Shown: one piece after another, positions 21,972 to 51,718 of the stretch
Layout of the letters: each line of letters begins with the position of its first letter
How positions within the stretch are numbered: position 1 is the first letter of the stretch
The notes under the pieces: model-generated
What the model was told of the DNA's origin: nothing
The model's input: the letters and a program-made list of their open reading frames with translations, nothing else
Databases searched by the model: none
Program-made: the position numbers and the translations under genes
DNA from: a virus
Taxonomy: Duplodnaviria > Caudoviricetes
Length of the DNA: 64,000 nt
Virus record (IMG/VR): IMGVR_UViG_3300033463_000010
Location: 32,001 to 96,000 of that record
Direction: 5' to 3' (one strand)

Positions 21972-22358
21972 ATGCAGATGAACATTAAGGTTCACGAAGC
22001 GTCCAACAAATACAAGTTTTCCTATGGGGAAGAAATAGGAATTAAGACTTTTACTTCTAATTCCGCTATGCCCCTAGTGTCTTATGACAAGCAGATGGCG
22101 AAGTTCCGTAATGGTATTGACAATGTTCGTGTTTATCCTAACGGAACGGGTGATGGGATTTCGGTGCAGATTTTTTGTAGTTCCGATGAAGCCAGGTTTG
22201 CTACGCCCGATATTACGTCTATGAATATCAAGTATGTGGGCGATAGTAATAACTATGCTCAAATGATTCAAACGGCACTTTGCTATGTCGCTGACATTCT
22301 TGACTATCGTAAGTCTATCGTAGAAACGCTCAAGGCTTCGGGTGTTATTAACGGTTAG
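21972..22358 (+). CDS. Leader-bearing protein (MNIKVHEA), putative internal head protein
   Basis: AGGAGG RBS; class I leader. Confidence 0.65.
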   Translation: MQMNIKVHEASNKYKFSYGEEIGIKTFTSNSAMPLVSYDKQMAKFRNGIDNVRVYPNGTGDGISVQIFCSSDEARFATPDITSMNIKYVGDSNNYAQMIQTALCYVADILDYRKSIVETLKASGVING

Positions 22359-22373
22359 TAGAGGTTCGTCCTT

Positions 22374-23150
22374 ATGATGCAGTCCATAGCCATACAAGCC
22401 TATTTCGCTCAAATGCGGAATTTCTTTACCAGGCAGGGCTTTGACGGTTCTATGAAAGTCTGCTATGGTTCGGACGCAGAGGGTCCGCAGCGTATTTTGG
22501 ACCAGGACCTAGCCGACAAGAAAATGGAACGCAAGTCCGAAACCAACCGTGAGAATGTCCGTGAAGCCCCGTATTCCTACCTGTTTTGGACCAGGGATTC
22601 CTTGAAGAACATTGTCCGTCGTTCCATACGCCTGCAAGACGGAGTGGCACCCGACGGGCGGTTGAAGTTCAAGAAGACCGTTTCGGCAGAATTTGGTATG
22701 GGTTGCGTCCTGGTGTCTAACAAAATGGAATTGATTGAGGATTTCGCAGAAGCGTTCGCAGCGGAATACCAAAACGTTCATAACGTCCCGATTAACTTGA
22801 AGTTCGCCTATGAAACCCGCACAAGCACAGCAGAGGGCGGTTATGATACGGCAGGCTTGAACGCAACGATTATCCAGGACCTTGGGACCGAGGAACCTAT
22901 TTCGTTCCGACAGGGTGACTTGTTTTCGTATAGTTGGAACGTCCGTTTCCTGTTGCAGTTCGTGAGCGAATTTGCCGATTGGAAGACAGCCCCGTTGCGT
23001 TCCGTTGTCGTTGACCTGTATAACAAGCGTGGCATTCCTCTCGCTTCTATGGATTTCAACGGACAGCCCGAATGGAAAGAATATGTCGCAAAGGACGGCA
23101 CAAAGGTAATCGTTCCCAAGGACGCTTACGTTGAAGTTGAGAAACCCTAG
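22374..23150 (+). CDS. Putative tail terminator/neck protein
   Basis: Size and structural-module context only. Confidence 0.4.
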   Translation: MMQSIAIQAYFAQMRNFFTRQGFDGSMKVCYGSDAEGPQRILDQDLADKKMERKSETNRENVREAPYSYLFWTRDSLKNIVRRSIRLQDGVAPDGRLKFKKTVSAEFGMGCVLVSNKMELIEDFAEAFAAEYQNVHNVPINLKFAYETRTSTAEGGYDTAGLNATIIQDLGTEEPISFRQGDLFSYSWNVRFLLQFVSEFADWKTAPLRSVVVDLYNKRGIPLASMDFNGQPEWKEYVAKDGTKVIVPKDAYVEVEKP

Positions 23151-23275
23151 TAGGTAATTTGTTATATACTATGGTTGTGCCCGAAGTAATGCTCATTTTG
23201 CGTGTTCCCCTGTTGCACGACGGGGGAATTTGTTGTTATTTTTAAGAACGTAAAAACTAAACCAGGAGTTTATTT

Positions 23276-23899
23276 ATGCAGTATGTCGTTGACGAATCCT
23301 TAACCAACTTCAAGTTTTGGAGTGGTGCTGCTGACAACGCCAAACTTTTAGAATACAGCGAATTGCAGGAATTGGATGATGTTCTTCCCGAATACTTTAA
23401 TACGGGCGACGGGAACCTCCCGACTGCAACTGAAATCAACGATATGTTTTGGTTTGATTTCGCCACTGTCTGCGAAGCCATCGGCTTGCAGTATGACGAA
23501 GAAAAGGGCGAAATTATCCGTGACAACGACGAAAGCCGTAAGAAGCGTTCCGAAGCCAACGGCAACGACAAGGTGGGTAAGCAGAACTTCACCTATGCAG
23601 AACTTGAAGATGCCTGGAACAAACTCAACGCCCGCATTCAGCGTGACCCGTTTGACAAGGACAATCCCCCGTCGGGTGGTTATGACATTCGCAACGGATA
23701 TGCCTGTGGCGAACGTGATTGGAACGATTGGCACATTGACTTTTCCCTTGACGCTGTTAAGAAAGCCCTTGAAGAAGTGGCTGAACCGATTAAGGAAGGC
23801 GACCTTGAAGTTTACTACAATGACAAGGACAATAATCAAGCCGATTCCGACAATCACGGTATCTTTATCATTGACGGCAAGATTGACACCATTTACTAA
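23276..23899 (+). CDS. Acidic two-domain protein with ESRKKRSE linker
   Basis: FWSGA...TEINDMFWFD domain, linker, second acidic domain. Confidence 0.7.
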   Translation: MQYVVDESLTNFKFWSGAADNAKLLEYSELQELDDVLPEYFNTGDGNLPTATEINDMFWFDFATVCEAIGLQYDEEKGEIIRDNDESRKKRSEANGNDKVGKQNFTYAELEDAWNKLNARIQRDPFDKDNPPSGGYDIRNGYACGERDWNDWHIDFSLDAVKKALEEVAEPIKEGDLEVYYNDKDNNQADSDNHGIFIIDGKIDTIY

Positions 23900-23919
23900 T
23901 TGCAAAGGGGTTCTTGGAT

Positions 23920-24933
23920 ATGGCTAATTGGTCTATCAGTTATACAGACGTTTTTGGTAAGAAGAAAGTTGAATCGTTCACTAGCCAGGGTGCTGCCCAG
24001 GCTCGCTATGAAGAACTCATTCCCCGCACTTACGGGGATTTGGGCGACCTTGTGAACGTGACCGCACCTATCCGTTCCGCTGTGAAAGTTTCGGAAGGTA
24101 TCTTTTACGGGTCTGCCGACAAGAAAGACCCGAACCGCTATGCCGACGGCAAGGAAGAATGGGACGATTTCAAGGACGTGGTTCGTAAGTTGCTTGCTGA
24201 ATTTGACGACCGTGCTGAAACAAAGTTCTTCAAGGTTGTCCCGATTGGTAATGACAACTACGAAATCTATTTCAAGGGCGACGGGGACAAGTTGTCCGAC
24301 CTGCTCTTTATGAGCATTTATCAAAGTGCGATGGGCGAGCCGACTTTTAACGTTATCAAGGGCGACGTTAGCGACGCTGTGTTTGACGACGCTTATGACA
24401 TTGTTGAGCCGTATATCGCAGACGTGTTCCGTATGGCTTATGACGACGGCAACACGGGTATTGTCCGCAAGTTCTATTCTAGCGATGACTTCCACAAGTC
24501 GTTGAAAGAAGATTGTGGGGGTGCGTCTGCTGCGTCGCTTGGAGCAGTCCCGACCGCCACCGTCCGTCCGTCTAACAAGCGTGAGTCTGTGACTTATGAT
24601 AAAGCGAAGACTATGGACGACTGCTATGCAGCGGTAAATTCTACCATTATGGATGACCCTGCTGTTACGTCGTTAGGTCTTTATGTTATTAAGGACGAAC
24701 ACGCTAGTCCGTCGTGTAGTGCGGTATGTATCTATGACTCCGCAGACAAGAACCCCAATAAAGACCCGATTCTTGGGTTTGAGTTCTATGACAACGGGAT
24801 ATACCACGTTGTTTGGTATGAAGACAATGAAGACATTTCCGAAGGTCCTATTAGCAAGTATGGTTCCGCTGCTAAACTTGTGGATTTCTATAAGAATGAT
24901 ATTGTGGAATACTTGCAGCGTTCTAAAAGTTAA
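23920..24933 (+). CDS. Acidic multi-domain protein, putative internal head protein
   Basis: KKKVES, KVSEG, KRES candidate boundaries; precedes the protease. Confidence 0.65.
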   Translation: MANWSISYTDVFGKKKVESFTSQGAAQARYEELIPRTYGDLGDLVNVTAPIRSAVKVSEGIFYGSADKKDPNRYADGKEEWDDFKDVVRKLLAEFDDRAETKFFKVVPIGNDNYEIYFKGDGDKLSDLLFMSIYQSAMGEPTFNVIKGDVSDAVFDDAYDIVEPYIADVFRMAYDDGNTGIVRKFYSSDDFHKSLKEDCGGASAASLGAVPTATVRPSNKRESVTYDKAKTMDDCYAAVNSTIMDDPAVTSLGLYVIKDEHASPSCSAVCIYDSADKNPNKDPILGFEFYDNGIYHVVWYEDNEDISEGPISKYGSAAKLVDFYKNDIVEYLQRSKS

Positions 24934-24960
24934 ACTAAAACCAACCGAGGCAAAAACACT

Positions 24961-26004
24961 ATGCAGATTGCAGAAGACTATATTCCGTTTAAGTGTGAGT
25001 TCATTGACGACATTTCCCGTGTTGACGAATCCGCACAATCCGAAGTTGCTAAAAGTGGTGGCACCATTCTCGCCATTGTCAAGGGTCAGCATTTCTGCCC
25101 TGGCAAGGTAAGCCGTAACCACCGCCTTTATACTCCCGAACTTTGGGAAGAAGCAGGTAAGGACGAAGACGTGCAGCGTAAGTTGACCAACGGACAAATG
25201 TTCGGTCGTATCGGTCACGAAGCCGAAATTACCGACGAAGATATTGCCGACGGCAAGTTTAGCCACATTACCCGCAACATTGATTGGAAGACGGGTATCG
25301 CTGAATCTGTTATCTACAATACGGATATGGGTAAGACGCTTTACACTATCCTTCGTGCGGGCACTACTATGTTTGTCAGTTCCCGTGCCGATGGCGACTA
25401 CGAAGGTAAGGACGAAGACGGCAACGATATTCTTGACCCGAAGACCTACAAACTTGAACGCTTTGACTTTGTGCAGGACCCTGGGTTCCTGGACGCAAAG
25501 CCGAAGATGATTTCCGAAAGCAAGCAGAATGAAAAGATTGAAGAAACCGTCAAGGAACGTGTCGCAGAATCCCTGCTTTCGCTTGCAAAGGAACTTGGGG
25601 CACCCGTTGAACTTGACGGCAGCACCTACGTCGTAGAAAGCCTGGAAAAGAACACTGTTGAAATGACAGATTGTGACAAGGGCACAGGCGACACTTACAA
25701 GTTTGAAGACTTTACCGAAGTGACCGAAGACATTAAGCAGTCTATCGTGAAGTTCGTTGAAGGCTTGCAGGAAGAAGTGAAGCAGTCCGCAGACACTATC
25801 CGTGACTTGAAATTCGCTAACAAGAATGGCTTGAACGAAGCCTACGTGACCGAACGTCGTCGTGCAGGTGCTACTTACGAAGCGATTGAACGTGAGCAGC
25901 CCGAAACGCAGACCTTTAAGGTCCTGGAAGCAAAGGCACCCGCCCGTGAAGCCGAAGACAACGACGGGTCCTTGATTGGTTATATTCTCGGCAGCAAACG
26001 TTAA
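24961..26004 (+). CDS. Prohead maturation protease (T4 gp21-like)
   Basis: RNHRLY, FGRIGHE, FSHI, TDMGK, VSSRADG, FDFVQDPGF..A.P motifs. Confidence 0.9.
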   Translation: MQIAEDYIPFKCEFIDDISRVDESAQSEVAKSGGTILAIVKGQHFCPGKVSRNHRLYTPELWEEAGKDEDVQRKLTNGQMFGRIGHEAEITDEDIADGKFSHITRNIDWKTGIAESVIYNTDMGKTLYTILRAGTTMFVSSRADGDYEGKDEDGNDILDPKTYKLERFDFVQDPGFLDAKPKMISESKQNEKIEETVKERVAESLLSLAKELGAPVELDGSTYVVESLEKNTVEMTDCDKGTGDTYKFEDFTEVTEDIKQSIVKFVEGLQEEVKQSADTIRDLKFANKNGLNEAYVTERRRAGATYEAIEREQPETQTFKVLEAKAPAREAEDNDGSLIGYILGSKR

Positions 26005-26016: not shown

Positions 26017-26337
26017 ATGGCTAAAATGAAAATCAAGGTTCACGAAAGCAGTAAAAACGAAGAAAAAAGTGTCGTAGATTTGCTTGCGGTTATGGACACT
26101 CCAAAGTATAAGCAGGACTTTGAAAAGATTAAGGCTGCTTACGATAACTTTGAAAAACTTGCAGACAGCCTGGGCTATCGTATTGCGGTGGACCCCGATG
26201 AAGAATATCAAGCCGTCCTGCTTCCCAAGAGTATCGTGAATGACGTGTATTTGGACCAACACGCCAACGCTAAATTTTTGGATGGGACAAAGCCGTTGTC
26301 TAGCATAGTCCCTGTCGTATTAACGTATCATAAGTAG
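26017..26337 (+). CDS. Leader-bearing protein (MKIKVHES)
   Basis: Class I leader. Confidence 0.7.
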   Translation: MAKMKIKVHESSKNEEKSVVDLLAVMDTPKYKQDFEKIKAAYDNFEKLADSLGYRIAVDPDEEYQAVLLPKSIVNDVYLDQHANAKFLDGTKPLSSIVPVVLTYHK

Positions 26338-26347: not shown

Positions 26348-26614
26348 ATGCCAAAGTTGAAGATTATGGTCCACGAAGCCAAGTCCGACCTTGAAAAGCA
26401 GATTACGAAAGAATGTGTCCGTCTTGGATTGGACCGCCTGGTTAATCGTGGCTATTCTTCACGGATAGTCCCGACTTACGGCAATTACATTGAAAAACAC
26501 AAGGATGAACCTGTTGAACAAATCGCAAAGTATATCTACGACACGGAACAGCGTGAGTGGTTCAAAATGCGTGGCGGTTTCAATATGTTCGGTCTTTTTG
26601 GCAACAGAGGTTAA
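26348..26614 (+). CDS. Leader-bearing protein (LKIMVHEA)
   Basis: Class I leader. Confidence 0.7.
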   Translation: MPKLKIMVHEAKSDLEKQITKECVRLGLDRLVNRGYSSRIVPTYGNYIEKHKDEPVEQIAKYIYDTEQREWFKMRGGFNMFGLFGNRG

Positions 26615-28699: not shown

Positions 28700-29473
28700 A
28701 TGGCATACAAATGCTCTATGCAGAAGAAAAAGGAAAGCCTTAACACGAAGGCTGAATCCGCTAACTCCAACTATTATTTCAGTATATGGACTGAAAATTA
28801 TCCCAAAAATGGCAAAGAACCCACACGTTATATTAACGTGTATGAGCCTTCGTCTTGTAAGGGTTGGTATGACGTTACAAAGGAATATGACGACGCTTAC
28901 GAAGAAGAAATGGAACTCCGTAATGGTAATGTAAATTACACCTATATCGCCAAGAAAGTTATTGATAAAATTATTTCGGGTGCCATTAAGCCTTGTGATG
29001 ACCCGTATGACACTATCCCTAACTTTTCTAGGTGGTTCAAGGAATATCCGTTTAACATAAGTGAACACACCCAGGATTTCCTGGACGGGAAGTATGGTTC
29101 TCGCAGCGAATCCAAGAAGCACACTTGTTCTATGCAGAAGAAAAAAGAAAGTCTTGCTGCGAAGAAGTCCAAGAAGTGCGAAGGCTTTATGGATGACCTG
29201 CCGTATGACGCACCCGTAGCCATTGAAACCCTGTGTTCCGAAATTATGAGCCACACCGAAGAATTTACCATTGAAGACGCAGCCGTGGCTGAAATGTGCG
29301 GTAAGTGGTATATTCGTGATTACGCAAATGGTTCTACCGCAGCACAGAACGAAGACGAATTTGTTGACGAAATCCTTGCAGGTCTTTCGGGCAGTCCTTT
29401 GGACGGCTCCCCGTTCGGTGCAGCCGAAGCCGAAGAATACGCCAGGAAGATTTACAACGAAGTCGTTGCTTAA
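28700..29473 (+). CDS. Leader-bearing protein with two CSMQKKKESL copies
   Basis: Class II motif at the N-terminus and internally. Confidence 0.7.
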   Translation: MAYKCSMQKKKESLNTKAESANSNYYFSIWTENYPKNGKEPTRYINVYEPSSCKGWYDVTKEYDDAYEEEMELRNGNVNYTYIAKKVIDKIISGAIKPCDDPYDTIPNFSRWFKEYPFNISEHTQDFLDGKYGSRSESKKHTCSMQKKKESLAAKKSKKCEGFMDDLPYDAPVAIETLCSEIMSHTEEFTIEDAAVAEMCGKWYIRDYANGSTAAQNEDEFVDEILAGLSGSPLDGSPFGAAEAEEYARKIYNEVVA

Positions 29474-29576: not shown

Positions 29577-29621
29577 ATATAACAAATTACCTACAACTTA
29601 TAACTAGGTAATTTGTTATAT
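29577..29621. repeat. Perfect 17-bp inverted repeat of the promoter motif with 11-bp spacer
   Basis: ATATAACAAATTACCTA-N11-TAGGTAATTTGTTATAT. Confidence 0.9.
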
Positions 29622-29822: not shown

Positions 29823-30320
29823 ATGCTTAAATTCCGCAAGAAACTCCGTGAAGAAGACAGCATCGTGGAAGTTGGCGACGTTAAGTTGGATGCCAAGGAA
29901 ACCGAAGTTGTTTTCGCTGACGAAGAAAAGGACATCCAGGTTGTCGTTTCCCCCGACCCCGAAAACGAAAACTCTGTGACCGTCGCAGTTCTTACTAACT
30001 CCAAGGAAGACGTGGAAGAAGAAGAAGTTCTTGGTTCTGCTTCCGTTGAAGGTAGTGAAGATAAAGGTGCTGAAGAATCCCGCAAGGCTGCTCGTCGTGA
30101 GGCATTCCGTAAGCGTCTTGAAGCCCGTCGTTCTGCAAAGAAGCAGACCGCACCCGCCCGCAACGAGGCTCGTGCCGAAGCGTTCCGCAAGCGACTTGAA
30201 GCCCGTCGTGCTGCAAAGAAAGCAGAAGCCAAAACTTCTACTTCCACTGCCGAAGCCCGTAAGAAGGCAATCGGTGAAGCACGTGCGAAGTTCCGTTCCA
30301 AAATTGGCAAGAAAGCCTAA
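29823..30320 (+). CDS. Prohead scaffold/core protein
   Basis: Immediately upstream of capsid; acidic N-half, basic helical repeat EAFRKRLEARR x2. Confidence 0.6.
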   Translation: MLKFRKKLREEDSIVEVGDVKLDAKETEVVFADEEKDIQVVVSPDPENENSVTVAVLTNSKEDVEEEEVLGSASVEGSEDKGAEESRKAARREAFRKRLEARRSAKKQTAPARNEARAEAFRKRLEARRAAKKAEAKTSTSTAEARKKAIGEARAKFRSKIGKKA

Positions 30321-30338: not shown

Positions 30339-31988
30339 ATGAAGACTTCCGTTGAAGAAATGTCTAATCAGAAATACAACCGCCTCGTAGAATCCTACGA
30401 AGCCCGCTATGGCAAGCAGTTTGAAGCCCTTGCCAAGTCCCCGTCGTTCAAGGGCACCTTGTCCAAGAACGCTATGTTCAACCTTGGTCAGCAGATGGAC
30501 AACTACAAGCGTTACGAAAGTTTCGTGAACGAAAATTCCTCGGCTTCTAGCCTTGGTGTGTTGCCCCGTGTTGCTCTTGACCTTATTTCTGCTACCTACG
30601 CACTTTCTATTGCTCCGCAGTTGGCAAGTGTGCAGACGCTTGAAGAATCCCAGGGTCTTATCTACTTCAAGAAGACCTTTACCCACGGCTATCCGCTGAC
30701 TGCCCAGGAAGGACTTCCGTCCCTGCCCGAAGACAGGTGGATGGGTGCCGACGGTAAGTTTGAAGGCGACAAGACTTTCGCAGGTGCCTGGAAGAAGTGG
30801 CTTGACACCCGTGGTCGTCCCGTTGCAGGTCCCGACACCGAACTGACTGCCGAACAACTCGCAGCCAAGAACTTTGACGCTATCACTTTCAACGCCCTCA
30901 AGGGTTGGCAGGCTTCCCCGACGCAGTATATGAGCGAACGTCAGTTTGCTATCGCTGCCGACGGTTCCGCTACCATTAAGTATGGCGTGGGCAACCTCCG
31001 TTGGAACACCCCGATTAACGTCCGTCTTGTTGACAAGAACGGCAACGTTGAAGACGTGGTTGGTGTTTGCGGTGGTCCTGGTCAGTTGCCGACTTTCTAT
31101 GGTAAGGTTTCCGTGACCGCTGCTGCTGTTGGTCCCGACCTTGTTCTTACCATTCCGACGGGCTACCAGGGTGGCGTGACTTATGACGTTGACTTTGAAA
31201 AGGCTCCCGACGTTCCTGCTATTGAATACGCTCTTGACAACAAGGTTGTCAGTGCCGAAATCATTGGCTTGAAGGAAATGATGGGCACGTTCAAGTCTTT
31301 CCAATTCAACAAGCGTTTTGGTAAGGCTGCGTCCGACGAAGTTCTTGCTGACCTTACGGGTCATATGGCTATGGCTGAATCCGAAAAGATTCTTGCTGCC
31401 TATGTCCGTTGTGCTAACAAGTGGAAGCCGATTACCTGGAATCTCAACAAGACCGCAGGTATCAGCGAATTTGAACACCGTCAGTCTTTCCTGTATGCTA
31501 TCCAGGCTGCTTCTGCTGCTATCGGTAGCCGTGCAGGTAAGGGTCACGCTAACAAGATTGTTGCGGGCTACGTCGCTTGTCAGTATATTGCGTCCCTCCC
31601 TGGTTTCCGTCTTGCTCCGCAGACCAACCTTGTGGGTCCGCACGTGTATGGCACTCTTGAAAACGAAGGTATCACGGTTATCCGTTCCAACACCATCGTT
31701 GCCCCGAACGAAGTTATCTGTGCTTACAGCAGCGATAACAGCCCGTTTGAAGCACCTGTTGTGTGTGCAACGTATATGCCTGTGTTCCTCACCGACACTA
31801 TGCCTGTTGCCGACAACCCGTTCCAAACGCAGCGAGCAATCGCTTCTTGGAAGGCTATTGAACCTGTGGTTGCCGAATTTGTGCAGCGTATCGTCATCAC
31901 AAATGATGCCGAAGCACCTGCCGACGTGAACGTGTTCCTTACTACCACCCCGAACGGTGGCAGCGGTAGCGGTTCTAGCAACGGCTAA
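30339..31988 (+). CDS. Major capsid protein (T4 gp23-like)
   Basis: LDLI..TY..SIA..LASVQTL...QGLIY; GHANKIVAG; GTL; V.ATYMPV pattern; strong codon bias. Confidence 0.9.
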   Translation: MKTSVEEMSNQKYNRLVESYEARYGKQFEALAKSPSFKGTLSKNAMFNLGQQMDNYKRYESFVNENSSASSLGVLPRVALDLISATYALSIAPQLASVQTLEESQGLIYFKKTFTHGYPLTAQEGLPSLPEDRWMGADGKFEGDKTFAGAWKKWLDTRGRPVAGPDTELTAEQLAAKNFDAITFNALKGWQASPTQYMSERQFAIAADGSATIKYGVGNLRWNTPINVRLVDKNGNVEDVVGVCGGPGQLPTFYGKVSVTAAAVGPDLVLTIPTGYQGGVTYDVDFEKAPDVPAIEYALDNKVVSAEIIGLKEMMGTFKSFQFNKRFGKAASDEVLADLTGHMAMAESEKILAAYVRCANKWKPITWNLNKTAGISEFEHRQSFLYAIQAASAAIGSRAGKGHANKIVAGYVACQYIASLPGFRLAPQTNLVGPHVYGTLENEGITVIRSNTIVAPNEVICAYSSDNSPFEAPVVCATYMPVFLTDTMPVADNPFQTQRAIASWKAIEPVVAEFVQRIVITNDAEAPADVNVFLTTTPNGGSGSGSSNG

Positions 31989-32281: not shown

Positions 32282-33289
32282 ATGTCTAACAAGCATTTCA
32301 AGATAGTTGTTAAAGAAGCAAAGAAGAATGAAAGTAAGTCCGACGGTGAACGTGCCGTGGACGACTATGATACCCTTATTGACGGTCTAAAAGAATTGGG
32401 ATTTGAGCCGTCGTCCAATGTTCGTAACGGTAAGATTTATCCGTATAGAACAAGGTTCACTGCGACCAAAGACGGCATTAAGTATGGCTTTACTCTTAAT
32501 GAAGACCTCACAGGCGAATATCTTGAATCCATTGAAGTCGTTGGTGGAAGCATTTACACGGGCGACCCAAATGACAAGGACGCTAGGGTGTTTAAGTCCG
32601 TCGGTGAAGTCCTTGACGCTTTGAAGCAGGTTGACGGTAAGAAGTCCGAGGCTATGGATATGTCTAGGGCGAAGCAGATTGTAATGGGTGACACTCGCCA
32701 CAACCCTAAAACGGTTGCTGAGGAAATTGCGTGGTCTGCGTGGGTTGAAAGCGACGGGCACCCTAAAGCATTATTGCGTAAGGCTGCTAGGGATTACTAT
32801 AATAGCGGGCTATTGGCTTCTGCTGAAAGGGCACGTTATTTGTTGGACACCTATACAGACGAAATGCGTGAACTTTATAAGGAATTTACGTCGTCGGTTG
32901 AACCTGCTGAAGTTGCGTCCACAGGTGAAGTTATCCCGTGGAGTTCTTTTGAAGATATGTCTTCTAAAAATGAAGCTGACGCAGAAGCCTTTATTCAGTG
33001 GATTACTGAAAATGTTGCACGTAAGTTGGTTCGCTATGCTAGTGAGTCAATGAAGTCCGAAAGCCTTTCGCTCAAACAGAAAGAACTTAAAGATATGGCA
33101 CGTTATGGCGAAGCCGAAGACATTACTACCATATCCGACGCAGAAGCAAAGGAACTTCGCAAGAAGGGCGTTGAAACGGTGGGTGTTAGCCGTGGGACCT
33201 ACGGAATGAACGGTGCCTTGCTCCGTGACAAGGACGGCAATAAATACGTGATTACCGCCCGCAGCTCTAACCTGTTCTACTTTGTATAA
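32282..33289 (+). CDS. Leader-bearing three-domain polyprotein-like protein
   Basis: FKIVVKEAKKNES leader; KKSEA and SESMKSES linkers. Confidence 0.7.
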   Translation: MSNKHFKIVVKEAKKNESKSDGERAVDDYDTLIDGLKELGFEPSSNVRNGKIYPYRTRFTATKDGIKYGFTLNEDLTGEYLESIEVVGGSIYTGDPNDKDARVFKSVGEVLDALKQVDGKKSEAMDMSRAKQIVMGDTRHNPKTVAEEIAWSAWVESDGHPKALLRKAARDYYNSGLLASAERARYLLDTYTDEMRELYKEFTSSVEPAEVASTGEVIPWSSFEDMSSKNEADAEAFIQWITENVARKLVRYASESMKSESLSLKQKELKDMARYGEAEDITTISDAEAKELRKKGVETVGVSRGTYGMNGALLRDKDGNKYVITARSSNLFYFV

Positions 33290-33315: not shown

Positions 33316-34650
33316 ATGAATAAAACATTCACCTGCTCTATGCAGAAAAAGAAAGAAAGCTTTGCGAAGAAGTCCGAAGCAAAGACTTGCGAAGCCACGT
33401 TTAAGCAGGGCGTGGACGACTTTATCAGTTGTGCCCCGTCGGGTGGTTGGTCCGACTATTGGGCTATGCAGCAGGATTGGGAAGCGTTTAAGGACGGTCT
33501 TTGCCGTGACGGTGTGATTACACAGAAGCAGGCAGATTCTTGGAGTAACCCTTGTACCCCCGAAACTTTTGCTCGCTGGCAGAAGCGTAACGGCTTGGTT
33601 AGCCGTGGTTACGAATCCAAGAAGTCCGAAGACACCTATGACCGTCCTGTGACCTTGTATGCTTCTACTCGTTATGATGACGCAGAAGAAGCACAGAAGT
33701 TCCTTGATAGCATTAGCGGTGGTGAAGTAAAGGTGTCCAAGGAACGCAATGGTGATACCTTGTCTGTGAGCATTGAAGGTGACGATGATGCTATTGACAC
33801 ATTCCTTGCAGTCTATAAGGATAACTATGATACCCTTGAAAAAGATTGCGATGCAGATGTTAATGGTTGGACGGACCCCGTGGATTTGAAGTATTATACG
33901 GTACAGGGTCGTAAGGAACTCACAGGTGAATCCGAAAGCAAGCAGAACGAAAAGAGTAAGGCTGTCTGTGCTGTTTGTGGGGAACCTACAGATGACCCTG
34001 TTTTTGACTATGACCATACTTTCTGTAAGGATTGTTACGGTGACGGTGGGGACGTTTGGAAGGGTGATAAGGCGAATGCTAATGCTAAATTTGTTGTTGG
34101 GACAATGATTAGTCTTGACGGTGTTAAGCAATATATTCGGGAATTTAGACCTCGTACTTTCGTAGCTCAAAACGTAGACACAGGTAAGGAAGTTACTTTG
34201 CCCCGCTCTAGTCTTAATCGTGCTTTCGCTTTATATGACCCTAGAAAGTCGGATTACGACGACAGGGGTAATTTAAAAAACCGTGAATCAAATAAAAAAG
34301 GCGAATCCAAGAAGTCCGAAGGCATTGGCGACCGAATCAAGATGGGCATAGACTACAATATGTTTATGCGTATGTGTGGTTCCGCAGCCTACCTTGATGA
34401 CAATGAAGACTATTGGGATGCACTGTGGGAATACTACTCCGAAATGGGCGAAATTGAAGACGCTTGCGAGTTCTTTGACAACTTGTTCCAATACACCGCT
34501 TGGTGCGATGCAGACGAGGTGTACGATGAATACTTGGACGATAAGTTCAAGGACGAGTCCAAGAGCAAGGAAGAATGTATTGAGGCTGCTGTTGACGCAG
34601 GCGACCTTGACGTTTTCAAGACGGACAAGGGCTATCTTGTAATTCAGTAA
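33316..34650 (+). CDS. Leader-bearing four-module polyprotein-like protein
   Basis: CSMQKKKESF leader; YESKKSED, ESESKQNE, GESKKSEG linkers; CxxC..CxxC module. Confidence 0.75.
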   Translation: MNKTFTCSMQKKKESFAKKSEAKTCEATFKQGVDDFISCAPSGGWSDYWAMQQDWEAFKDGLCRDGVITQKQADSWSNPCTPETFARWQKRNGLVSRGYESKKSEDTYDRPVTLYASTRYDDAEEAQKFLDSISGGEVKVSKERNGDTLSVSIEGDDDAIDTFLAVYKDNYDTLEKDCDADVNGWTDPVDLKYYTVQGRKELTGESESKQNEKSKAVCAVCGEPTDDPVFDYDHTFCKDCYGDGGDVWKGDKANANAKFVVGTMISLDGVKQYIREFRPRTFVAQNVDTGKEVTLPRSSLNRAFALYDPRKSDYDDRGNLKNRESNKKGESKKSEGIGDRIKMGIDYNMFMRMCGSAAYLDDNEDYWDALWEYYSEMGEIEDACEFFDNLFQYTAWCDADEVYDEYLDDKFKDESKSKEECIEAAVDAGDLDVFKTDKGYLVIQ

Positions 34651-36861: not shown

Positions 36862-37677
36862 ATGTCTAAAATGAAAATCAAGGTCCACGAAAGAAATTCC
36901 GATAATGACCCGCAGCGTTTCTACGATAAATTGAACCCTGCTGAAAAGCGTCGTTTTGACGGGCTTGCCGACACGGTTGAAGCCCTGGTTGGTGTGTTTG
37001 ACGAAAACGGAAAATTGTCTAAACCGCAGCAAGACCAACTCAAGGAAGCCAGGGACACGATTTACGTGTTTGGCTATGCAGCCAGGGGCTATGTAAGTCT
37101 TGCCGACGAAGTTCTTGCCAACTATGGCGTGGAACCTTTGCTTGACCCGAACGAACCTGTCTTTGGCGAATCCAAAAAGAACGAAGACACCGACGACGCA
37201 GCCGAAGCACTCGCAAAGGAACTAGGGGTTTCTGTTGACAAGGTTTCGGATAGCTCCCAGGACTATGACTATTATGAACTCGATTACACGTATGACGTTG
37301 AATTGACGGACGGCACGACTGCTACTTACCTTGTGTATGATAATCAGCAGTCTGCTATTGACGCTGCTGCGGACGATTTGGGTGAACGTTTCCACGACGA
37401 CAGTAGCATACTTGGGGCAGCTATTGAATACTTCGGCTTCGGGACGCTTTCCGATTATTTGAACGGATATGACGACGAAATGGCTGACCTTGAAAGTCTT
37501 TGTGACGACGTGAGTTCCGAAGAATTTGCACGTATGTTGCAGCAGCGGGGCGGTTTGGATTACCGTGGGTTTGCTGAATACAACATAGGTGAACTTGGGG
37601 CTGCTTGGCACCTTTCCAATTATGACGGCAAAGAAGTTGAACTTGAAAACGGTATGCTCGCATATCGTGTAGATTAA
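36862..37677 (+). CDS. Leader-bearing two-domain protein (MKIKVHER; GESKKNED linker)
   Basis: Class I leader; very acidic C-domain ending HLSNYDGKE...YRVD. Confidence 0.72.
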   Translation: MSKMKIKVHERNSDNDPQRFYDKLNPAEKRRFDGLADTVEALVGVFDENGKLSKPQQDQLKEARDTIYVFGYAARGYVSLADEVLANYGVEPLLDPNEPVFGESKKNEDTDDAAEALAKELGVSVDKVSDSSQDYDYYELDYTYDVELTDGTTATYLVYDNQQSAIDAAADDLGERFHDDSSILGAAIEYFGFGTLSDYLNGYDDEMADLESLCDDVSSEEFARMLQQRGGLDYRGFAEYNIGELGAAWHLSNYDGKEVELENGMLAYRVD

Positions 37678-37689: not shown

Positions 37690-39195
37690 ATGTCTTTGAA
37701 AATCAAAACACATAAGTTTGAAAGCCGTGTAGCTCCCGCTGCACAGCGTCGTCCGTTTGGTCGTATGGCTGAATCCAAAAAGTCCGAAGCTACAAGTTTC
37801 GGTGCGGGAATGTCTAAACGCACGGACCTGTCCAAAATGCGTAATTTGGGTGAAGTCATAGACGTTCTTGAAGAACACAAAAAACTTATGGAAAATAAGG
37901 CAAAGGATTTGTCGCAAAGCAAGGAAGACTTGCAGGCTGCGATTAAGTCCCTTAACGAATTTTCCAAACACGTCCTGTTCTTGAAGCAGCAGTCCGTAAA
38001 GGGTATCAAGGACGCACTCACGTTCAACAAGTCCCCCGAAGTCAAGGCTGCTGCCGATATTGAAAAGCACTTGAAGAATGCTCTTAAAATCCTTTACTCC
38101 GATTATGAGAACATTCCCGACGTTACTCAACTGCTGACAGTTGTTGACAGTCGGTATGCTACCCGTGGTGACAAGGTTGTGACCGCCTGGGTTGACAATG
38201 CGACCCGTGCTATTGAAGTGGACGCAAAGACGATTAAGGACAGCATCGCTGCGGGCGATATGTCCGAAGACGACGTTGTGAAACTTGTGACGGTTACTTA
38301 TGCTACCCACGGTGTCAAGAACAAGGACACCGTTGAAAAGGTAACGCCTGTCCTTGAACGTATGAACGCCTTGCTTGCTTCGGCTCCGAAGATTGAAGAA
38401 GCGGTCATTGACCCGAAGGAATTTAAGGAACTCCGTGACCTTGTGGAACAGATTGTTAAGGAAGCGTCCGAACCGACGCTTACTGTCAAGACTGCTATCA
38501 CTACGCTTTCAAAGGGCGAACTCGCAACCGTCCCGTCCGAAGCGTTTGTGTCCGAGGGTCTGCTTGACAAACTCAAAGACCTTGTGGCTTCTCTCAAGGA
38601 CAAGATTTCGTCCCTGTGGAACTCGTTTACTTCCCTGTTCTTCAACCTGGAAGACGAAGCCCTTGAATCGGCTGAAACGTTTGCCGAAGTTGAAGAAGGC
38701 TTTGCCATTATGGGCATTGTCGTTGAATCCTACGTTGCAAAGAGTGTTCCGCTCGGCAAGCAGTTTGAAGTCCTTACGAAGTCCGTGCTTCACTGCTGCG
38801 ATAAACTTGTCAAGGACGCTTCCCTTGCGGGCGAATTTGACGACGAAGTGATTTACGCAGAAGAAGCCGTCAATAATGCCGTTGAGTCGTTCCAGGCTCT
38901 CGGTGAAGCCTGCAAGACTTTGAAGAACGCATTGTCGTATCACAAAAACGAAGACAATATGAACGTTATCGGTATTCTTGCGGACGCTATCACGCAGATT
39001 GTGAACGACGACAATGGCAGTGCCGATACGGAAGGTGGCGACGACTCCGAAGACGACGAAAATTCTGTAATCCGTGACGTTGAAAAGGAATATAGCCCCG
39101 CAGGTGGCGAGGGCGGTGAAGAAGGTCCCGAAGCGAACGGTGGCGAGAACGAAGCCCCGAACCCCGCTGAAATGGGCGAACCCGAAACGTTCTAG
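37690..39195 (+). CDS. Leader-bearing helical protein, putative prohead core/inner-body protein
   Basis: MSLKIKTHKFES, MAESKKSEA; coiled-coil rich. Confidence 0.65.
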   Translation: MSLKIKTHKFESRVAPAAQRRPFGRMAESKKSEATSFGAGMSKRTDLSKMRNLGEVIDVLEEHKKLMENKAKDLSQSKEDLQAAIKSLNEFSKHVLFLKQQSVKGIKDALTFNKSPEVKAAADIEKHLKNALKILYSDYENIPDVTQLLTVVDSRYATRGDKVVTAWVDNATRAIEVDAKTIKDSIAAGDMSEDDVVKLVTVTYATHGVKNKDTVEKVTPVLERMNALLASAPKIEEAVIDPKEFKELRDLVEQIVKEASEPTLTVKTAITTLSKGELATVPSEAFVSEGLLDKLKDLVASLKDKISSLWNSFTSLFFNLEDEALESAETFAEVEEGFAIMGIVVESYVAKSVPLGKQFEVLTKSVLHCCDKLVKDASLAGEFDDEVIYAEEAVNNAVESFQALGEACKTLKNALSYHKNEDNMNVIGILADAITQIVNDDNGSADTEGGDDSEDDENSVIRDVEKEYSPAGGEGGEEGPEANGGENEAPNPAEMGEPETF

Positions 39196-43815: not shown

Positions 43816-45111
43816 ATGAAGACGTTGAAACTAGCCATAACGAATAACCCCGACCTGTCGGATGTTATAAGAGTGTATAGCAGTATGTTCCGTATGGCTT
43901 ACAATCGTCTTCAAGAGGGTTGTTCCGAGAATACTACGTGGCACAAAATTAAAGAAATTTTCGGTGTAAACTGTTGGCTTGCCTCGTCTGCTGCAAAGGA
44001 AGCACACGGGGTAGTTACGCTTAACAAGGGTAAGAAAGTCTTGTTTGGGGGTAAGTGGAACTTAAAGCAATACCTTAAAGGCTTGATTACCAAAGAGCAG
44101 TTTAAGCATAAGCGGTTGGTGCCCTTATGCAGTATAGGGGAAAAACAATATGCAGGGAACCGCCTGTTTGACTTTGACTTTAATAATCGGACTGTTGTGT
44201 TCAAGCCTGGTAACGGTGTCCGTAAGGAAATACAGTTCTGCCCCGTTAAGAAGAAACTAGCACAAGAGTTAGCCAAAGTTCAAGAGTTAGCCGAACAGAA
44301 GAAAATGCCCGTGACCGTGAAGTTCACGGACAAGCATTTATACCTTACTTACGACGAATCCTTGATTTATAACGAAGCATACAAGAACTTAAAGCACAAC
44401 CGTGTTTTGGGAATAGATATGAACCCCAATTATGTCGGGGTTTCCGTTATTGAGTTTGATAAGAACGACGAATTTAAAATACTGCACAAGGTAGTGTTTG
44501 ACCTAACCGCACTTACGAAGCCTAGCGGTAAGGCAAGCACGGATAAGAAATCCAAATACTTTACGAACAAGCTGAAGCACGAAACTATCGCTATTGCTCA
44601 CAAGATTAACAAGTTGGTGGACTATTGGAAGTGTAGTAAACTAGCCATTGAAGACCTGTCTATAAAACCGAAAGACCAAAATAAGGGCAGGACGTTTAAT
44701 CGCTTGTGTAATAACAGGTGGGAACGTCAACTGTTCGTGAACAAGCTGAAAATGTTGGCTAATATCCACAGGTATGAGCTAGTTGAAGTCAATCCTGCCT
44801 ATTCTTCAATCGTGGGCAACTTTGCATACGGTAGTCCCGATACTCCCGATATGGTTGCGTCCTCTATTGAAATAGCACGTAGGGCTTACAAGAAATTTGA
44901 GAAGGGATGGTTCTATCCCGGGTTTAACGTTGAACGAACAGACGAGCAATGGAAGCAAACGCTGTCGGGAGTGAAAACCTGGAAAGAACTGTTCCGAAAA
45001 GTCAAAGAAACGGGACTCAAATACCGTTTCCTGCTATCCGACTATGTTGGAAATGTAGTCTTGAGTATCTTCTATAGTAAACAGAAGTGGAAATTACTAC
45101 TTTTTAATTAA
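43816..45111 (+). CDS. TnpB-related RuvC nuclease lacking a zinc ribbon (tnpB-3)
   Basis: LGIDMNP, IEDLS, VNPAYSS, PDMVASSIEIARR; paralogue of 51882-53177. Confidence 0.82.
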   Translation: MKTLKLAITNNPDLSDVIRVYSSMFRMAYNRLQEGCSENTTWHKIKEIFGVNCWLASSAAKEAHGVVTLNKGKKVLFGGKWNLKQYLKGLITKEQFKHKRLVPLCSIGEKQYAGNRLFDFDFNNRTVVFKPGNGVRKEIQFCPVKKKLAQELAKVQELAEQKKMPVTVKFTDKHLYLTYDESLIYNEAYKNLKHNRVLGIDMNPNYVGVSVIEFDKNDEFKILHKVVFDLTALTKPSGKASTDKKSKYFTNKLKHETIAIAHKINKLVDYWKCSKLAIEDLSIKPKDQNKGRTFNRLCNNRWERQLFVNKLKMLANIHRYELVEVNPAYSSIVGNFAYGSPDTPDMVASSIEIARRAYKKFEKGWFYPGFNVERTDEQWKQTLSGVKTWKELFRKVKETGLKYRFLLSDYVGNVVLSIFYSKQKWKLLLFN

Positions 45112-49347: not shown

Positions 49348-49350
49348 TGT

Positions 49351-49617
49351 ATGGCAGACTCTAAAACGATTGAACGGTTCCTGGATAACAACAGCGGAAT
49401 GAACCCGCAGTGCGTTATGGGTTACGTCGTGGTGGCTGACTTGAAGACACGCTACCGTCCCGACAAGTTGTTCCCCAGGGACCAATACTTAAAATGGGAT
49501 ATGATTTACAACGGTATAGACACCCCGCACCGTTTGGCTAGGGGTGCTGCCGTTGCACCTGTTGACAGGACGTGGCTTGCCACGGAATTGAACGAACAAA
49601 AGGATTTCAAGATATAA
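49351..49617 (+). CDS. LysM-like small baseplate protein (gp53/X-like)
   Basis: YRPDKL...YNGIDTP..L..G. Confidence 0.55.
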   Translation: MADSKTIERFLDNNSGMNPQCVMGYVVVADLKTRYRPDKLFPRDQYLKWDMIYNGIDTPHRLARGAAVAPVDRTWLATELNEQKDFKI

Positions 49618-50420: not shown

Positions 50421-50453
50421 TAAAAATATAACATTTATTTTTGAGAATACCTG

Positions 50454-50482
50454 TTGACGTATAGTAGGTAATTTGTTATATT
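50454..50482 (+). promoter_or_regulatory. Repeated phage promoter
   Basis: TTGACG-17-TATATT with TAGGTAATTTGT. Confidence 0.85.
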
Positions 50483-50515
50483 ATGGTTTTGGATAACCAA
50501 CCGAGGAAAATCATT

Positions 50516-50830
50516 ATGGCAAAATACACTACATTCTCTTTTACCGTGGACGACCTGTTTAACGGTTTGAACAACTCCGACAACTTCACGTCCGTCCAGG
50601 TTCGGACCAGGGATTACAGCGACGGGTATAACCGCATTATGGCTGCTGCAAAGGCACAGTTCGCAGAGGGGACTACGCTTCGCTATGACGTGACGGAAGG
50701 CTGCGTTGATGATTCCAGGTTCGTAATGGACGGTTCCCGTTATACGGTCGTGCAGAGCAAGGACTTTTTCAAACGCCCGCTTCCTGCTACCCTTGAAGAA
50801 TACCGAAACGCAGACAAGAACGACGGCTAG
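50516..50830 (+). CDS. Hypothetical early protein
   Basis: ACCGAGGA RBS after promoter. Confidence 0.7.
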   Translation: MAKYTTFSFTVDDLFNGLNNSDNFTSVQVRTRDYSDGYNRIMAAAKAQFAEGTTLRYDVTEGCVDDSRFVMDGSRYTVVQSKDFFKRPLPATLEEYRNADKNDG

Positions 50831-50977
50831 TAATGGCTTAATCACAGTCTGCACAGTTTATTCACAGTTGTTAATATACTATATTTGAAATAGGGTGCCC
50901 CAAATGTTCTATTGGGTTTAACGTGTTACCTCTTGTTAATGGGGCACCCCAAAATTTTTTACTAGGAGTGACCGCCT

Positions 50978-51718
50978 ATGTCTTTGAAGATACGACTTCA
51001 CGAATCAAGCGTGACCCGCATTATGTCACACTTGAAGAACTACGACTGCGGGACCATTACTGCGTTCCGTGGAACCTGTGCAAACGCTACGGACAACACC
51101 CTGGATTCCGTCAAGGAATACGAGGGTAAGTCTATCCCGCTTTCTGTAAAGAAGCAGTGGAACCGTGACTTGAAAGCAGCCCTGCTCAAGTTGGGCTACG
51201 GTGTGACCGCTATCAAGGGTCGCTACCGTGAAGACGGTTGGGACACCGCTTCGGACGAAGAATCGTTCTTTGTCGTGAACCTTACCGACGACCCCGACTT
51301 TATCAAGAATATGGCTCGCCTGGGCGAAGCCTACAACCAGGACAGTATCTTGATTAAGGAAAAGGGCAGTGACAACGCCTACCTGTTGGGAACCAACACT
51401 AGCGAGGGTGACTTTGACCCCGCCCTGGGCGAAACGCAGGACATTGGTAAGCTGCACGTAAATATCCCGTTGGACTACCTGGGTGCTTCGTCCGTTATCG
51501 GTAACAAGGCATTCATTTTCAAGGGTGACGACGAAAGCAAGAACGAAGCCAACGGCAATCCGTTTTCGCTTGACACGTTCTTTGCTTACGGCAATTACAG
51601 CAAGAGCGGTATTGCCCAACGTGCGAAGCCCGTGTTGGAAGCCCTGGGTCTGCCGACAAGTCGTCCGATAGCTGCATACAAGCAGGCGTTGGAAAATGCG
51701 GTTTCTTTTAATAAGTAA
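50978..51718 (+). CDS. Putative SAM lyase (T3 SAMase-like) with class I leader
   Basis: LKIRLHES leader; ITAFR, GRYRE, EE, ARL, QDSIL in the order recalled for T3 SAMase. Confidence 0.6.
   Translation: MSLKIRLHESSVTRIMSHLKNYDCGTITAFRGTCANATDNTLDSVKEYEGKSIPLSVKKQWNRDLKAALLKLGYGVTAIKGRYREDGWDTASDEESFFVVNLTDDPDFIKNMARLGEAYNQDSILIKEKGSDNAYLLGTNTSEGDFDPALGETQDIGKLHVNIPLDYLGASSVIGNKAFIFKGDDESKNEANGNPFSLDTFFAYGNYSKSGIAQRAKPVLEALGLPTSRPIAAYKQALENAVSFNK

What the first reader, a model, noticed from the sequence alone, without database searches (positions are those of the whole stretch)
21972..51718. Family of unrelated proteins sharing a KIxVHE(S/A) N-terminal tag: candidate capsid-loading address
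Seen: otherwise unrelated ORFs start with the same short basic/hydrophobic leader ending in Glu: 21972 MQMNIKVHEA, 26017 MAKMKIKVHES, 26348 MPKLKIMVHEA, 26620 MALRINIHES, 27246 MGLKIKMQEA, 32282 MSNKHFKIVVKEA, 36862 MSKMKIKVHER, 37690 MSLKIKTHKFES, 50978 MSLKIRLHES, and possibly 2053 (...KRRLHES). Most flank the gp21-like protease and gp23-like capsid genes. Established: T4 internal proteins IPI-III carry a 10-aa capsid targeting sequence that gp21 removes by cleaving after Glu; they are injected with the DNA, and IPI* inhibits GmrSD. Inference: this is a different targeting signal that loads a much larger, interchangeable cargo set into the head for delivery before any phage transcription.
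Basis: partly seen in the sequence, partly recalled or inferred. Interest (0 to 1): 0.92.

Follow-up and report, generated by a model that had tools for sequence, protein, structure and literature searches.

The report
Shared capsid-loading leader on phage proteins
An uncultured 213-kb rumen phage starts about twenty unrelated proteins, including a SAM-destroying anti-restriction enzyme, with one short tag that most likely works like phage T4's "load into the head, then clip off" signal; no experiment has tested this.

Summary
All ten listed N-termini are as described.

- **Census.** A matrix built from eight window leaders finds 19 sites in the 213-kb genome, against about 1 expected. The new sites sit almost only at ORF starts, and many lie in a second island at the contig ends.
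- **Cargo.** The cargo proteins are mutually unrelated. Third codon positions vary freely, so selection acts on the peptide.
- **Other motifs.** A second leader (CSMQKK[KI]ES) and an internal linker (E-S-K-K-x-E) recur in the same proteins.
- **Leader and linker are interchangeable.** In related phages the same domain follows the leader in one genome and a linker in another.
- **Protease.** It is a T4 gp21 homologue with an invariant E-S after its catalytic domain.
- **Turnover.** Relatives keep the leader and change the cargo.
- **SAM-lyase cargo.** It has a 62%-identical homologue without the leader. A distant homologue carries another phage lineage's own shared leader.

Best reading: this is a lineage-specific analogue of T4's capsid-targeting sequence with polyprotein cargo, a new variant of a known kind. 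Cleavage, packaging and injection are all inferred. This scan has noted similar leader systems in many other uncultured T4-like phages.

The parts
21972..22358 (+). Type A leader gene (MQMNIKVHE|A), 128 aa, cargo of unknown family
   Evidence: no Pfam or PHROG family
24961..26004 (+). Prohead protease, T4 gp21 homologue. Invariant H86 and S140/S141. Invariant E186-S187 (PKMISE|SKQNE|K) just after the catalytic domain, followed by a long C-terminal extension with further x-E-S/A sites
   Evidence: PHROG 207, E 3.6e-22. Pfam S77 scores 21.9 bits, below the 27-bit cut-off. Clade profile against T4 gp21 (5jbl), E 1.9e-4. Alignment A2
26017..26337 (+). Type A leader gene (MAKMKIKVHE|SSKNEE), 106 aa. 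A different cargo occupies this slot in relatives
26348..26614 (+). Type A leader gene (MPKLKIMVHE|A), 88 aa
26620..27237 (+). Type A leader gene (MALRINIHE|SKKTE|A), 205 aa, conserved across the clade. I5, E9 and E14 are invariant in 25 orthologues of 53-89% identity
27246..27635 (+). Type A leader gene (MGLKIKMQE|A), 129 aa
27638..28675 (+). Type B leader polyprotein (MFNCSMQKKKE|S ... NESKKSE|SAAG). Its C-terminal domain stands directly behind a type A leader in the relative G001
28700..29473 (+). Type B leader polyprotein with a second, internal copy of CSMQKKKES
29823..30320 (+). Scaffold-like, highly charged protein just upstream of the capsid gene. Its N-terminus resembles the leader (MLKFRKKLREE; MGIKVLKE in a distant clade)
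   Evidence: Inference from position and composition
30339..31988 (+). Major capsid protein, gp23 family. Clade-conserved candidate maturation site QTL[E/D]E|S at about residue 103
   Evidence: Pfam Gp23, E 2.7e-10
32282..33289 (+). Type A leader polyprotein (MSNKHFKIVVKE|AKKNE|S) of three modules. The first module occurs inside other polyproteins right after KKxE junctions. The last 80 aa form a widespread C-terminal domain
33316..34650 (+). Type B leader polyprotein with three ES(K/Q)xE linkers
36862..37677 (+). Type A leader protein (MSKMKIKVHE|R) with an internal GESKKNE|D linker
37690..39195 (+). Type A variant leader (MSLKIKTHKFE|S ... AESKKSE|A), 501 aa, helical with an acidic tail. Possibly a core protein
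23276..23899 (+). Two-module protein with a DESRKKRSE|A junction. Its C-terminal module stands behind the leader MSNMKITLHE|S in relative G001
50978..51718 (+). Type A leader (MSLKIRLHE|S) on a SAM-lyase-family enzyme. The leader is disordered in the model and the first helix starts at residue 11
   Evidence: Pfam PF23780 scores 46.8 bits, above the 28-bit cut-off. Model. Foldseek top hits are T3 SAM lyase 7ock and 8bb1
2053..2826 (+). Tad3-family (ThsB inhibitor) protein with a lineage-specific 44-aa presequence ending KRRLHE|S, exactly where homology to other Tad3 proteins begins. A possible long-leader member
   Evidence: Pfam Tad3, E 1.5e-29, match from residue 34

Best explanation
The KIxVHE(S/A) leader is this phage lineage's counterpart of the T4 capsid-targeting sequence.

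**Proposed mechanism**
- It is a 9-12-residue N-terminal propeptide that brings a protein into the assembling prohead core.
- The gp21-type prohead protease then cuts it off after the Glu.
- The same protease cuts E-S-K-K-x-E linkers and the second leader, CSMQKK[KI]E|S. One address can therefore load a polyprotein that is split into separate modules inside the head.
- The freed modules probably stay in the capsid and enter the host with the DNA. They include a SAM lyase and perhaps a Tad3-like Thoeris inhibitor.

**Shown here**
- The motif and its restriction to N-termini and domain boundaries.
- Selection at the peptide level.
- The equivalence of leader and linker.
- Cargo turnover between relatives.
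- Homology of the protease to gp21, and its conserved E-S site.

**Inferred**
- Binding to the core, cleavage, retention in the capsid and injection.
For: 1. **Non-random placement.** The motif is far from chance and almost always sits at ORF starts. The degenerate DNA pattern gives 9 forward, 0 reverse and 0 control hits in relative G001, and 4/0/0 in G004.
2. **Peptide-level selection.** Third codon positions are near maximal entropy while positions 1 and 2 are fixed. Leu uses 6 codons and Arg uses 4.
3. **Unrelated cargo.** The cargo proteins show no mutual similarity.
4. **Same domain, different preceding element.** Residues ~150-345 of w27638 follow NESKKSE|SAAG in the window, MSKMKIRVHE|SSGSAG in G001 and MSSLNIYAQESKKNE|AESVS in L003. 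Residues 98-207 of w23276 follow DESRKKRSE|A in the window and MSNMKITLHE|S in G001. The first module of w32282 sits after KKSE, KQSE or SKTE inside seven other polyproteins.
5. **Protease.** It is homologous to T4 gp21. E186-S187 is invariant after the catalytic domain and aligns with ITE-S of gp21. The capsid protein has a conserved L-[E/D]-E|S.
6. **T4 comparison.** IPII and IPIII read from the T4 record start MKTYQEFIAE|A. The length, the Glu at P1 and the small residue at P1' are the same. The T4 tag is known to direct packaging and to be the only thing the internal proteins share (PMC3012670, PMC12373910).
7. **Conservation with cargo turnover.** Leader variants persist in clades whose protease is only 46-62% identical, while the cargo sets differ.
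8. **SAM lyase.** A 62%-identical homologue starts MNE|SS with its own ribosome-binding site and no leader. A distant homologue carries another phage's shared leader, MKLLLENWREYLxE, which three neighbouring genes also carry.
9. **Polyproteins start with an address.** Nine of twelve linker-bearing proteins begin with a type A or type B leader.
Against: - There are no virion proteomic data, and the phage is uncultured.
- Most cargo is acidic, with pI 4-6, unlike the basic T4 internal proteins.
- The SAM lyase and g117039 lie downstream of promoter elements that carry a -35 box, the type seen before non-structural genes. The elements before the head and tail operons lack it. Both proteins may therefore be made early. 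The early and late labels are my inference.
- The window protease scores 21.9 bits against Pfam S77, below the 27-bit cut-off.
- The Glu-Ser at the end of the SAM-lyase leader belongs to a family-wide conserved ESSLSR. In that protein it need not be a cleavage site.
- Residues before the Glu differ between leader (V/I/L-H-E) and linkers (K-S-E, K-N-E), so a single protease specificity is assumed, not shown.
Confidence: 0.62

Rival explanations
1. The motifs are protease sites only. The bearers are prohead core or scaffold proteins that are cut into pieces and expelled during maturation, like T4 gp22, gp67 and gp68. They are not cargo delivered to the host, and the leader carries no address function.
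For: Several bearers have many sites, are acidic and lie in the head module. The scaffold-like protein has a leader-like N-terminus. w37690 looks like a helical core protein.
Against: The KIxVH part is conserved well beyond what the linkers need for cutting, and the linkers have different upstream residues. The modules between linkers are folded domains that also exist as separate leader-bearing genes. One bearer is a single-domain enzyme with the SAM lyase fold. Cargo turns over quickly between relatives, as accessory genes do.
Confidence: 0.17
2. The leader is the recognition tag of some other machine, for example a modifying enzyme as in RiPP-like systems, an export route, or an intracellular compartment. 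It is unrelated to the head.
For: An earlier follow-up in this scan reached that conclusion for a shared phage tag linked to a radical-SAM enzyme (e1-127136). At least eight leader genes lie outside the head module.
Against: The genome has no radical-SAM domain, and the control search was positive in 14 of 14 genomes. The leader ends in the same Glu-Ser/Ala that is invariant in the protease itself, and it is interchangeable with the linkers found in head-module proteins. It is too short and too charged to be a secretion signal.
Confidence: 0.08
3. The conserved element acts at the nucleic-acid level: a translation-initiation region, a binding site for a repressor or small RNA, or a recombination cassette. 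The peptide would then be incidental.
For: CAC-GAA is invariant at the DNA level in 14 of 16 leaders, and CAC is used more than its 62% genome share. A-rich codons (AAA, ATA) are enriched.
Against: Third positions elsewhere in the leader are close to random, and synonymous families are mixed. GAA is already the genome's preferred Glu codon at 89%. The motif also works at internal domain boundaries. Leader variants in distant clades keep the residue pattern, not the bases.
Confidence: 0.04

Closest known systems
T4 / T-even capsid targeting sequence and internal proteins IPI-III (Mullaney & Black 1996; Repoila et al. 1994; reviewed in PMC3012670 and PMC12373910)
   Same: A roughly 10-residue N-terminal leader is the only thing shared by otherwise unrelated proteins. 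The leader ends in Glu followed by a small residue. The phage has gp21-type protease and gp23-type capsid genes. The cargo loci are polymorphic between relatives. At least one cargo has an anti-restriction role.
   Different: The leader sequence is unrelated: basic KIKVHE against acidic and aromatic MKTYQEFIAE. There are about 20 or more bearers rather than 3. There is a second leader class. Polyproteins are joined by E-S-K-K-x-E. The cargo is mostly acidic. It includes an enzyme (SAM lyase) rather than only small binding inhibitors. The phage is far from T4, with capsid identity of 30% or less to any cultured phage.
Processed head and ejection proteins of giant phages phiKZ, 201phi2-1 and SPN3US (PMC5694885, PMC10052503)
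   Same: A jumbo genome. A gp21-like protease that cuts after Glu and trims its own C-terminus. Many internal head proteins that are processed. Paralogues with identical short N-termini have been noted (SPN3US gp53 and gp54).
   Different: Those phages use an A/S/G-x-E motif and mostly long propeptides of more than 100 aa. No single short leader shared by many unrelated proteins has been described there. Here the leaders are short and uniform.
Polyvalent proteins of phages and conjugative elements (Iyer et al. 2017, PMC5512222)
   Same: Multi-module polypeptides encoded among virion genes, predicted to be packaged and injected, with free shuffling of modules.
   Different: The polyproteins here have no recognised peptidase or MuF domain of their own. 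Processing is assigned to the prohead protease acting at short linkers. None of their modules matched a Pfam family.
T3 SAM lyase (gp0.3; PDB 7ock, 8bb1)
   Same: The protein at 50978-51718 matches the Pfam family above its cut-off, and its model has the same fold.
   Different: It is 246 aa against about 150 aa, with extra N- and C-terminal elements and the leader. The T3 enzyme is an early gene product made after entry, which I state from my own knowledge. A limited literature search found no report of a packaged SAM lyase.

Membership tests
T4-type capsid targeting sequence / internal protein system | Short N-terminal leader shared by otherwise unrelated proteins | tested here: met
T4-type capsid targeting sequence / internal protein system | Leader ends in Glu followed by a small residue, as at gp21 cleavage sites | tested here: met
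   Every clear leader ends E-S, E-A or E-R. T4 IPII and IPIII read ...IAE|A
T4-type capsid targeting sequence / internal protein system | Genome encodes a gp21-family protease and a gp23-family capsid protein | tested here: met
T4-type capsid targeting sequence / internal protein system | Leader sequence homologous to MKTYQEFIAE | tested here: not met
   No residue pattern is shared apart from the terminal Glu and an aliphatic residue two places before it
T4-type capsid targeting sequence / internal protein system | Cargo genes polymorphic between related phages | tested here: met
T4-type capsid targeting sequence / internal protein system | Leader necessary and sufficient for encapsidation, and removed in the prohead | not testable with these tools
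   Needs virion proteomics or fusion experiments
T4-type capsid targeting sequence / internal protein system | Cargo injected with the DNA | not testable with these tools
   No experimental data. The phage is uncultured
Peptidase S77 (T4 gp21) for 24961-26004 | Match to the family profile | tested here: inconclusive
   Pfam scores 21.9 bits, below the 27-bit cut-off. The loose genome search found nothing. However, PHROG 207 gives E 3.6e-22, homologues of 55-73% identity carry precomputed PF03420 hits, and the clade profile has T4 gp21 (5jbl) as its best PDB hit at E 1.9e-4
Peptidase S77 (T4 gp21) for 24961-26004 | Conserved His and Ser in the catalytic domain | tested here: met
   H86 and S140/S141 are invariant in 28 sequences, and the SSR motif aligns with ASR of the gp21 crystal sequence. 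Which residues are catalytic is taken from my own knowledge of gp21
Giant-phage (phiKZ / SPN3US) processed head proteins | Cleavage motif A/S/G-x-E and long propeptides | tested here: not met
   The leaders here are 9-12 aa long with V/I/L-H-E, and the linkers have K-x-E. Compared with PMC5694885
Polyvalent proteins (Iyer et al. 2017) | Several disparate modules in one polypeptide in a virion-gene context, with shuffling | tested here: met
Polyvalent proteins (Iyer et al. 2017) | Signature domains (MuF, MPTase, LPD domains) | tested here: not met
   No Pfam family for any module
SAM lyase family (PF23780) for 50978-51718 | Profile match above the curated cut-off, and the fold | tested here: met
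   46.8 bits against a cut-off of 28. Foldseek probability 1.00 to T3 SAM lyase
SAM lyase family (PF23780) for 50978-51718 | Catalytic residues and SAM cleavage activity | not tested
   No residue-level comparison with the solved enzymes was made

The most novel reading that the evidence does not exclude
A whole lineage of rumen jumbo phages uses two short, exchangeable address peptides and a five-residue cut-linker to pre-load roughly a tenth of its genes' products into the head. The load includes enzymatic and stoichiometric anti-defence proteins: a SAM lyase and a ThsB inhibitor. Restriction, BREX and Thoeris would then be disarmed on DNA entry, before any phage gene is transcribed. The two address classes would send cargo to different places or release times.
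Probability: 0.3. Interest if true: 0.75.

Novelty: new variant of a known kind. Interest (0 to 1): 0.58.

Why it matters
If the reading holds, the T4 packing trick is a general, re-invented strategy of large phages with gp21-type proteases, not a peculiarity of T-even phages.

- **Finding injected proteins from sequence.** The leader would identify injected proteins, many of them candidate anti-defence factors, in phages that cannot be grown.
- **Pre-loaded enzymes.** It would show that enzymes such as a SAM lyase can be loaded in advance. That changes the timing assumed for counter-defence.
- **A natural toolkit.** The leader and linker grammar would be a natural means of loading chosen proteins into capsids.

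Tried and rejected
- **Complex prediction.** The protease catalytic domain and the leader-bearing SAM lyase gave no verdict (score 0.00, controls not run). This is not evidence either way.
- **Megablast of the head block against cultured phages.** No match.
- **phmmer of single proteins against PDB.** Nothing for the SAM lyase or the protease. Only the protease clade profile reached T4 gp21.
- **Family searches on the cargo.** PHROGs, Pfam and PADLOC gave no credible family apart from the SAM lyase, Tad3 and an Lcl_C domain.
- **C-terminal 80-aa domain of 32282-33289.** The model is confident (pLDDT 90), but neither PDB nor BFVD gave an informative fold match.
- **Collection scan.** The narrower pattern found only five contigs, all of this clade.
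- **Paralogue remnants.** Rejected, because the cargo proteins share nothing beyond the motifs.
- **Tag for a radical-SAM enzyme.** Set aside, because the genome has no such domain.
- **Conserved ESSLSR as a universal cleavage site in the SAM-lyase family.** Left open. One homologue lies in a replication module with no shared leader nearby.

Full report
**Setting.** The window is bases 32001-96000 of a single 213,231-bp virus record that CheckV rates 97% complete. Earlier notes of this scan call it an uncultured rumen phage. It has no close cultured relative. Megablast of the head block finds nothing. Its capsid protein is at most 30% identical to any capsid in the phage collection.

Within the finding's range, three genes frame the head module:
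- The protein at 24961-26004 matches PHROG 207, head maturation protease (E 3.6e-22), and weakly matches Pfam Peptidase_S77 (21.9 bits, below the 27-bit cut-off).
- The protein at 30339-31988 matches Pfam Gp23.
- The protein at 40837-43125 is a tail sheath.

- A simple regex for the leader core hits ten times in the six-frame translation of the whole genome, nine of them directly after a start codon.
- A position matrix built from eight window leaders gives 19 hits of 14 bits or more, against 1.15 expected after shuffling residues.
- Eleven of those hits were not used for training. Eight are N-termini of ORFs of 90 aa or more, one is an internal domain boundary, and two look like chance.
- With variants, about 18 genes start with the leader. 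Many lie in a second island at genome 207-213 kb that continues across the contig ends to about 3.6 kb.
- After removing the first 16 residues, 27 motif-bearing proteins show one pairwise BLAST hit, a 24-aa motif stretch. They are unrelated to each other.

**Selection acts on the peptide.** Across 16 leaders, codon positions 1 and 2 are nearly fixed. Third positions have 1.4-1.8 bits of entropy. Leu is written with six codons, Arg with four and Ser with three. Only CAC-GAA is constant, and GAA is already the genome's preferred Glu codon at 89%. This argues against an RNA- or DNA-level element.

**Two more motifs belong to the same system.**
- CSMQKK[K/I]ES[L/F] occurs six times, mostly at N-termini: 27638, 28700, 33316 and a short ORF at 61458. 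It also occurs internally.
- E-[S/A]-[K/S]-[K/N/Q]-x-E occurs 15 times, always on the coding strand inside real ORFs. One copy is in the protease itself, and three are in a 673-aa protein at the far end of the genome.
- Nine of twelve linker-bearing proteins start with one of the two leaders.

**Leader and linker are interchangeable.** Four IMG/VR contigs carry proteases 84-87% identical to the window's. One of them is a 99%-complete 215,686-bp genome, G001.
- The C-terminal domain of the 27638 protein follows NESKKSE|SAAG in the window, MSKMKIRVHE|SSGSAG in G001, MSSLNIYAQESKKNE|AESVS in L003 and QEESKKNE|ADSVS in L001.
- The C-terminal module of the 23276 protein follows DESRKKRSE|A in the window and MSNMKITLHE|S in G001.
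- An exhaustive profile search shows that the first module of the 32282 protein occurs inside seven larger metagenomic proteins. In each case it sits a few residues after KKSE, KQSE, SKTE or KKDE.

The leader and the linker therefore mark the same kind of boundary, the start of an independent module.

**Link to the protease.**
- In 28 proteases of 31-94% identity to the window protein, H86 and S140/S141 are invariant. So is E186-S187, directly after the catalytic domain (PKMISE|SK). YVVE|S and GLNE|A are nearly invariant further on.
- A profile of this clade has T4 gp21 (PDB 5jbl) as its best PDB hit (E 1.9e-4). The invariant E-S aligns with ITE-S of gp21.
- C-terminal self-trimming after Glu is documented for the phiKZ and SPN3US enzymes (PMC5694885).
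- The capsid protein has a clade-conserved QTL[E/D]E|S near residue 103.
- In 25 orthologues of the 26620 protein (53-89% identity), I5, E9 and E14 are invariant. These are the Ile of the leader and both Glu of HE|SKKTE|A.

**Conservation of the tag, turnover of the cargo.**
- The degenerate DNA pattern of the leader gives 9 forward, 0 reverse and 0 control hits in G001, and 4/0/0 in a second complete relative.
- G001's leader genes only partly overlap the window genome's set. Several have no homologue in it, and the slots next to the protease hold different cargo in each relative.
- Clades whose protease is only 46-62% identical keep recognisable variants: MIIKVHE, MxMKI[K/R]V[R/N]E and MLRIKLIE.
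- A plain-base version of the pattern occurs in only five IMG/VR contigs, all of this clade.

**Cargo.**
- The 50978 protein passes the Pfam SAM-lyase cut-off. Its model has a disordered leader (residues 1-10) before the first helix, and its best structural matches are T3 SAM lyase.
- A 62%-identical homologue in another context starts MNE|SS with its own ribosome-binding site and no leader.
- A distant homologue in an unrelated contig starts MKLLLENWREFINE|SS. Three of its neighbours start with the same MKLLLENWREYLxE. The same enzyme family has therefore been given two different lineage-specific shared leaders.
- The Glu-Ser is also part of a family-wide ESSLSR. One homologue sits in a replication module with no shared leader nearby. 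Packaging of the whole family is not implied.
- The 2053 protein is a Tad3-family ThsB inhibitor (PMC13728456). Its lineage-specific 44-residue presequence ends KRRLHE|S exactly where homology to other Tad3 proteins starts.
- One cargo outside the window has an Lcl_C domain. The rest match nothing.

**Comparison with what is known.** T4 IPII and IPIII, read from the T4 record, begin MKTYQEFIAE|A. The length and the Glu followed by a small residue are the same as here. The sequence is different.

The literature states that T-even internal proteins share only this tag, that it directs packaging, and that Ip1-3 are injected inhibitors of GmrSD enzymes (PMC3012670, PMC12373910). Giant phages such as SPN3US process head proteins at A-x-E, but with long propeptides. 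Polyvalent proteins are a published concept for multi-module injected proteins (PMC5512222).

The present system combines these ideas with its own grammar. I class it as a new variant of a known kind. This scan has already noted similar shared leaders in many other uncultured T4-like phages.

**Cautions.**
- Nothing shows cleavage, packaging or injection.
- The cargo is mostly acidic.
- A promoter element, GGTA[A/T]TTTGTTATAT, occurs 27 times. Copies before the head and tail operons lack a -35 box. The copies upstream of the SAM lyase and of g117039 have one. That hints at early expression, though the timing labels are my inference.
- Some bearers are probably core or scaffold proteins, for example the 501-aa helical protein at 37690.
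- The complex prediction gave no verdict.

Noticed in passing
window 33029-33286 (C-terminal 86 aa of the 32282-33289 protein): A module of about 80 aa that sits at the extreme C-terminus of more than 250 metagenomic proteins of 70-1316 aa and also occurs as a stand-alone protein of about 70 aa. The model is confident (pLDDT 90), but PDB and BFVD gave no informative fold match and Pfam has no family for it. It may be a conserved anchor or effector end of these polyproteins.
   Followed up: partly
window 50978-51718 and loci L022-L024, L045: Long-form SAM-lyase-like proteins of many large myoviruses (Lak, Campylobacter CP220, Alishewanella, Microcystis) have N-terminal presequences of variable length that all end at a conserved x-E|SSLSR. 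In L045 the presequence is a leader shared with three neighbouring genes.
   Followed up: partly
window 14851-16089 (+) and 34767-35969 (-): Two TnpB genes (OrfB_IS605 with a Cas12f-like TNB domain) lie inside the structural region. The second sits between cargo polyprotein genes.
   Followed up: partly
window 43816-45111 (+) and 51882-53177 (-): Two paralogous 431-aa ORFs with similar N-termini (MKTLKLAITNNPDLSD / MRTVKLKIINRPDVLND) and no Pfam family. They may be another mobile element. One lies next to the SAM lyase gene.
   Followed up: no
whole genome; in the window at 463, 19381, 20920, 23153, 29591/29607, 39522/39542, 50467, 53912, 54621, 57656, 61150, 62258: The promoter-like element GGTA[A/T]TTTGTTATAT occurs 27 times in two classes. 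One class has a TTGACA -35 box 17 bp upstream. The other lacks it and stands before the head and tail operons. At 29591/29607 two copies face each other.
   Followed up: partly
window 61458-61592: A short 44-aa ORF starts MQKCSMQKKIESLRKKS, the type B leader. It may be a remnant or a very small cargo.
   Followed up: no
genome 208212-208790 (outside the window; locus L009 8213-8791): A 192-aa ORF has an internal in-frame M-TRKLTIKVHES at about residue 100. In relative G001 the downstream domain is a separate leader-bearing gene. This is either a fused polyprotein or an internal start.
   Followed up: partly
genome 23403-23783 (locus L006 5404-5784) and L029 431-964, L042 9528-9995: A leader-bearing cargo with an Lcl_C / Fibrobacter-succinogenes-major domain is conserved in distant clades. 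The domain and the 47% G+C hint at a Fibrobacter-like rumen host. This is speculation.
   Followed up: no
window 3603-4016, 5031-5930, 19750-20805 (-): An NlpC/P60 peptidase, a Stealth CR2 domain protein and a NUMOD3 homing-endonuclease-like gene.
   Followed up: no
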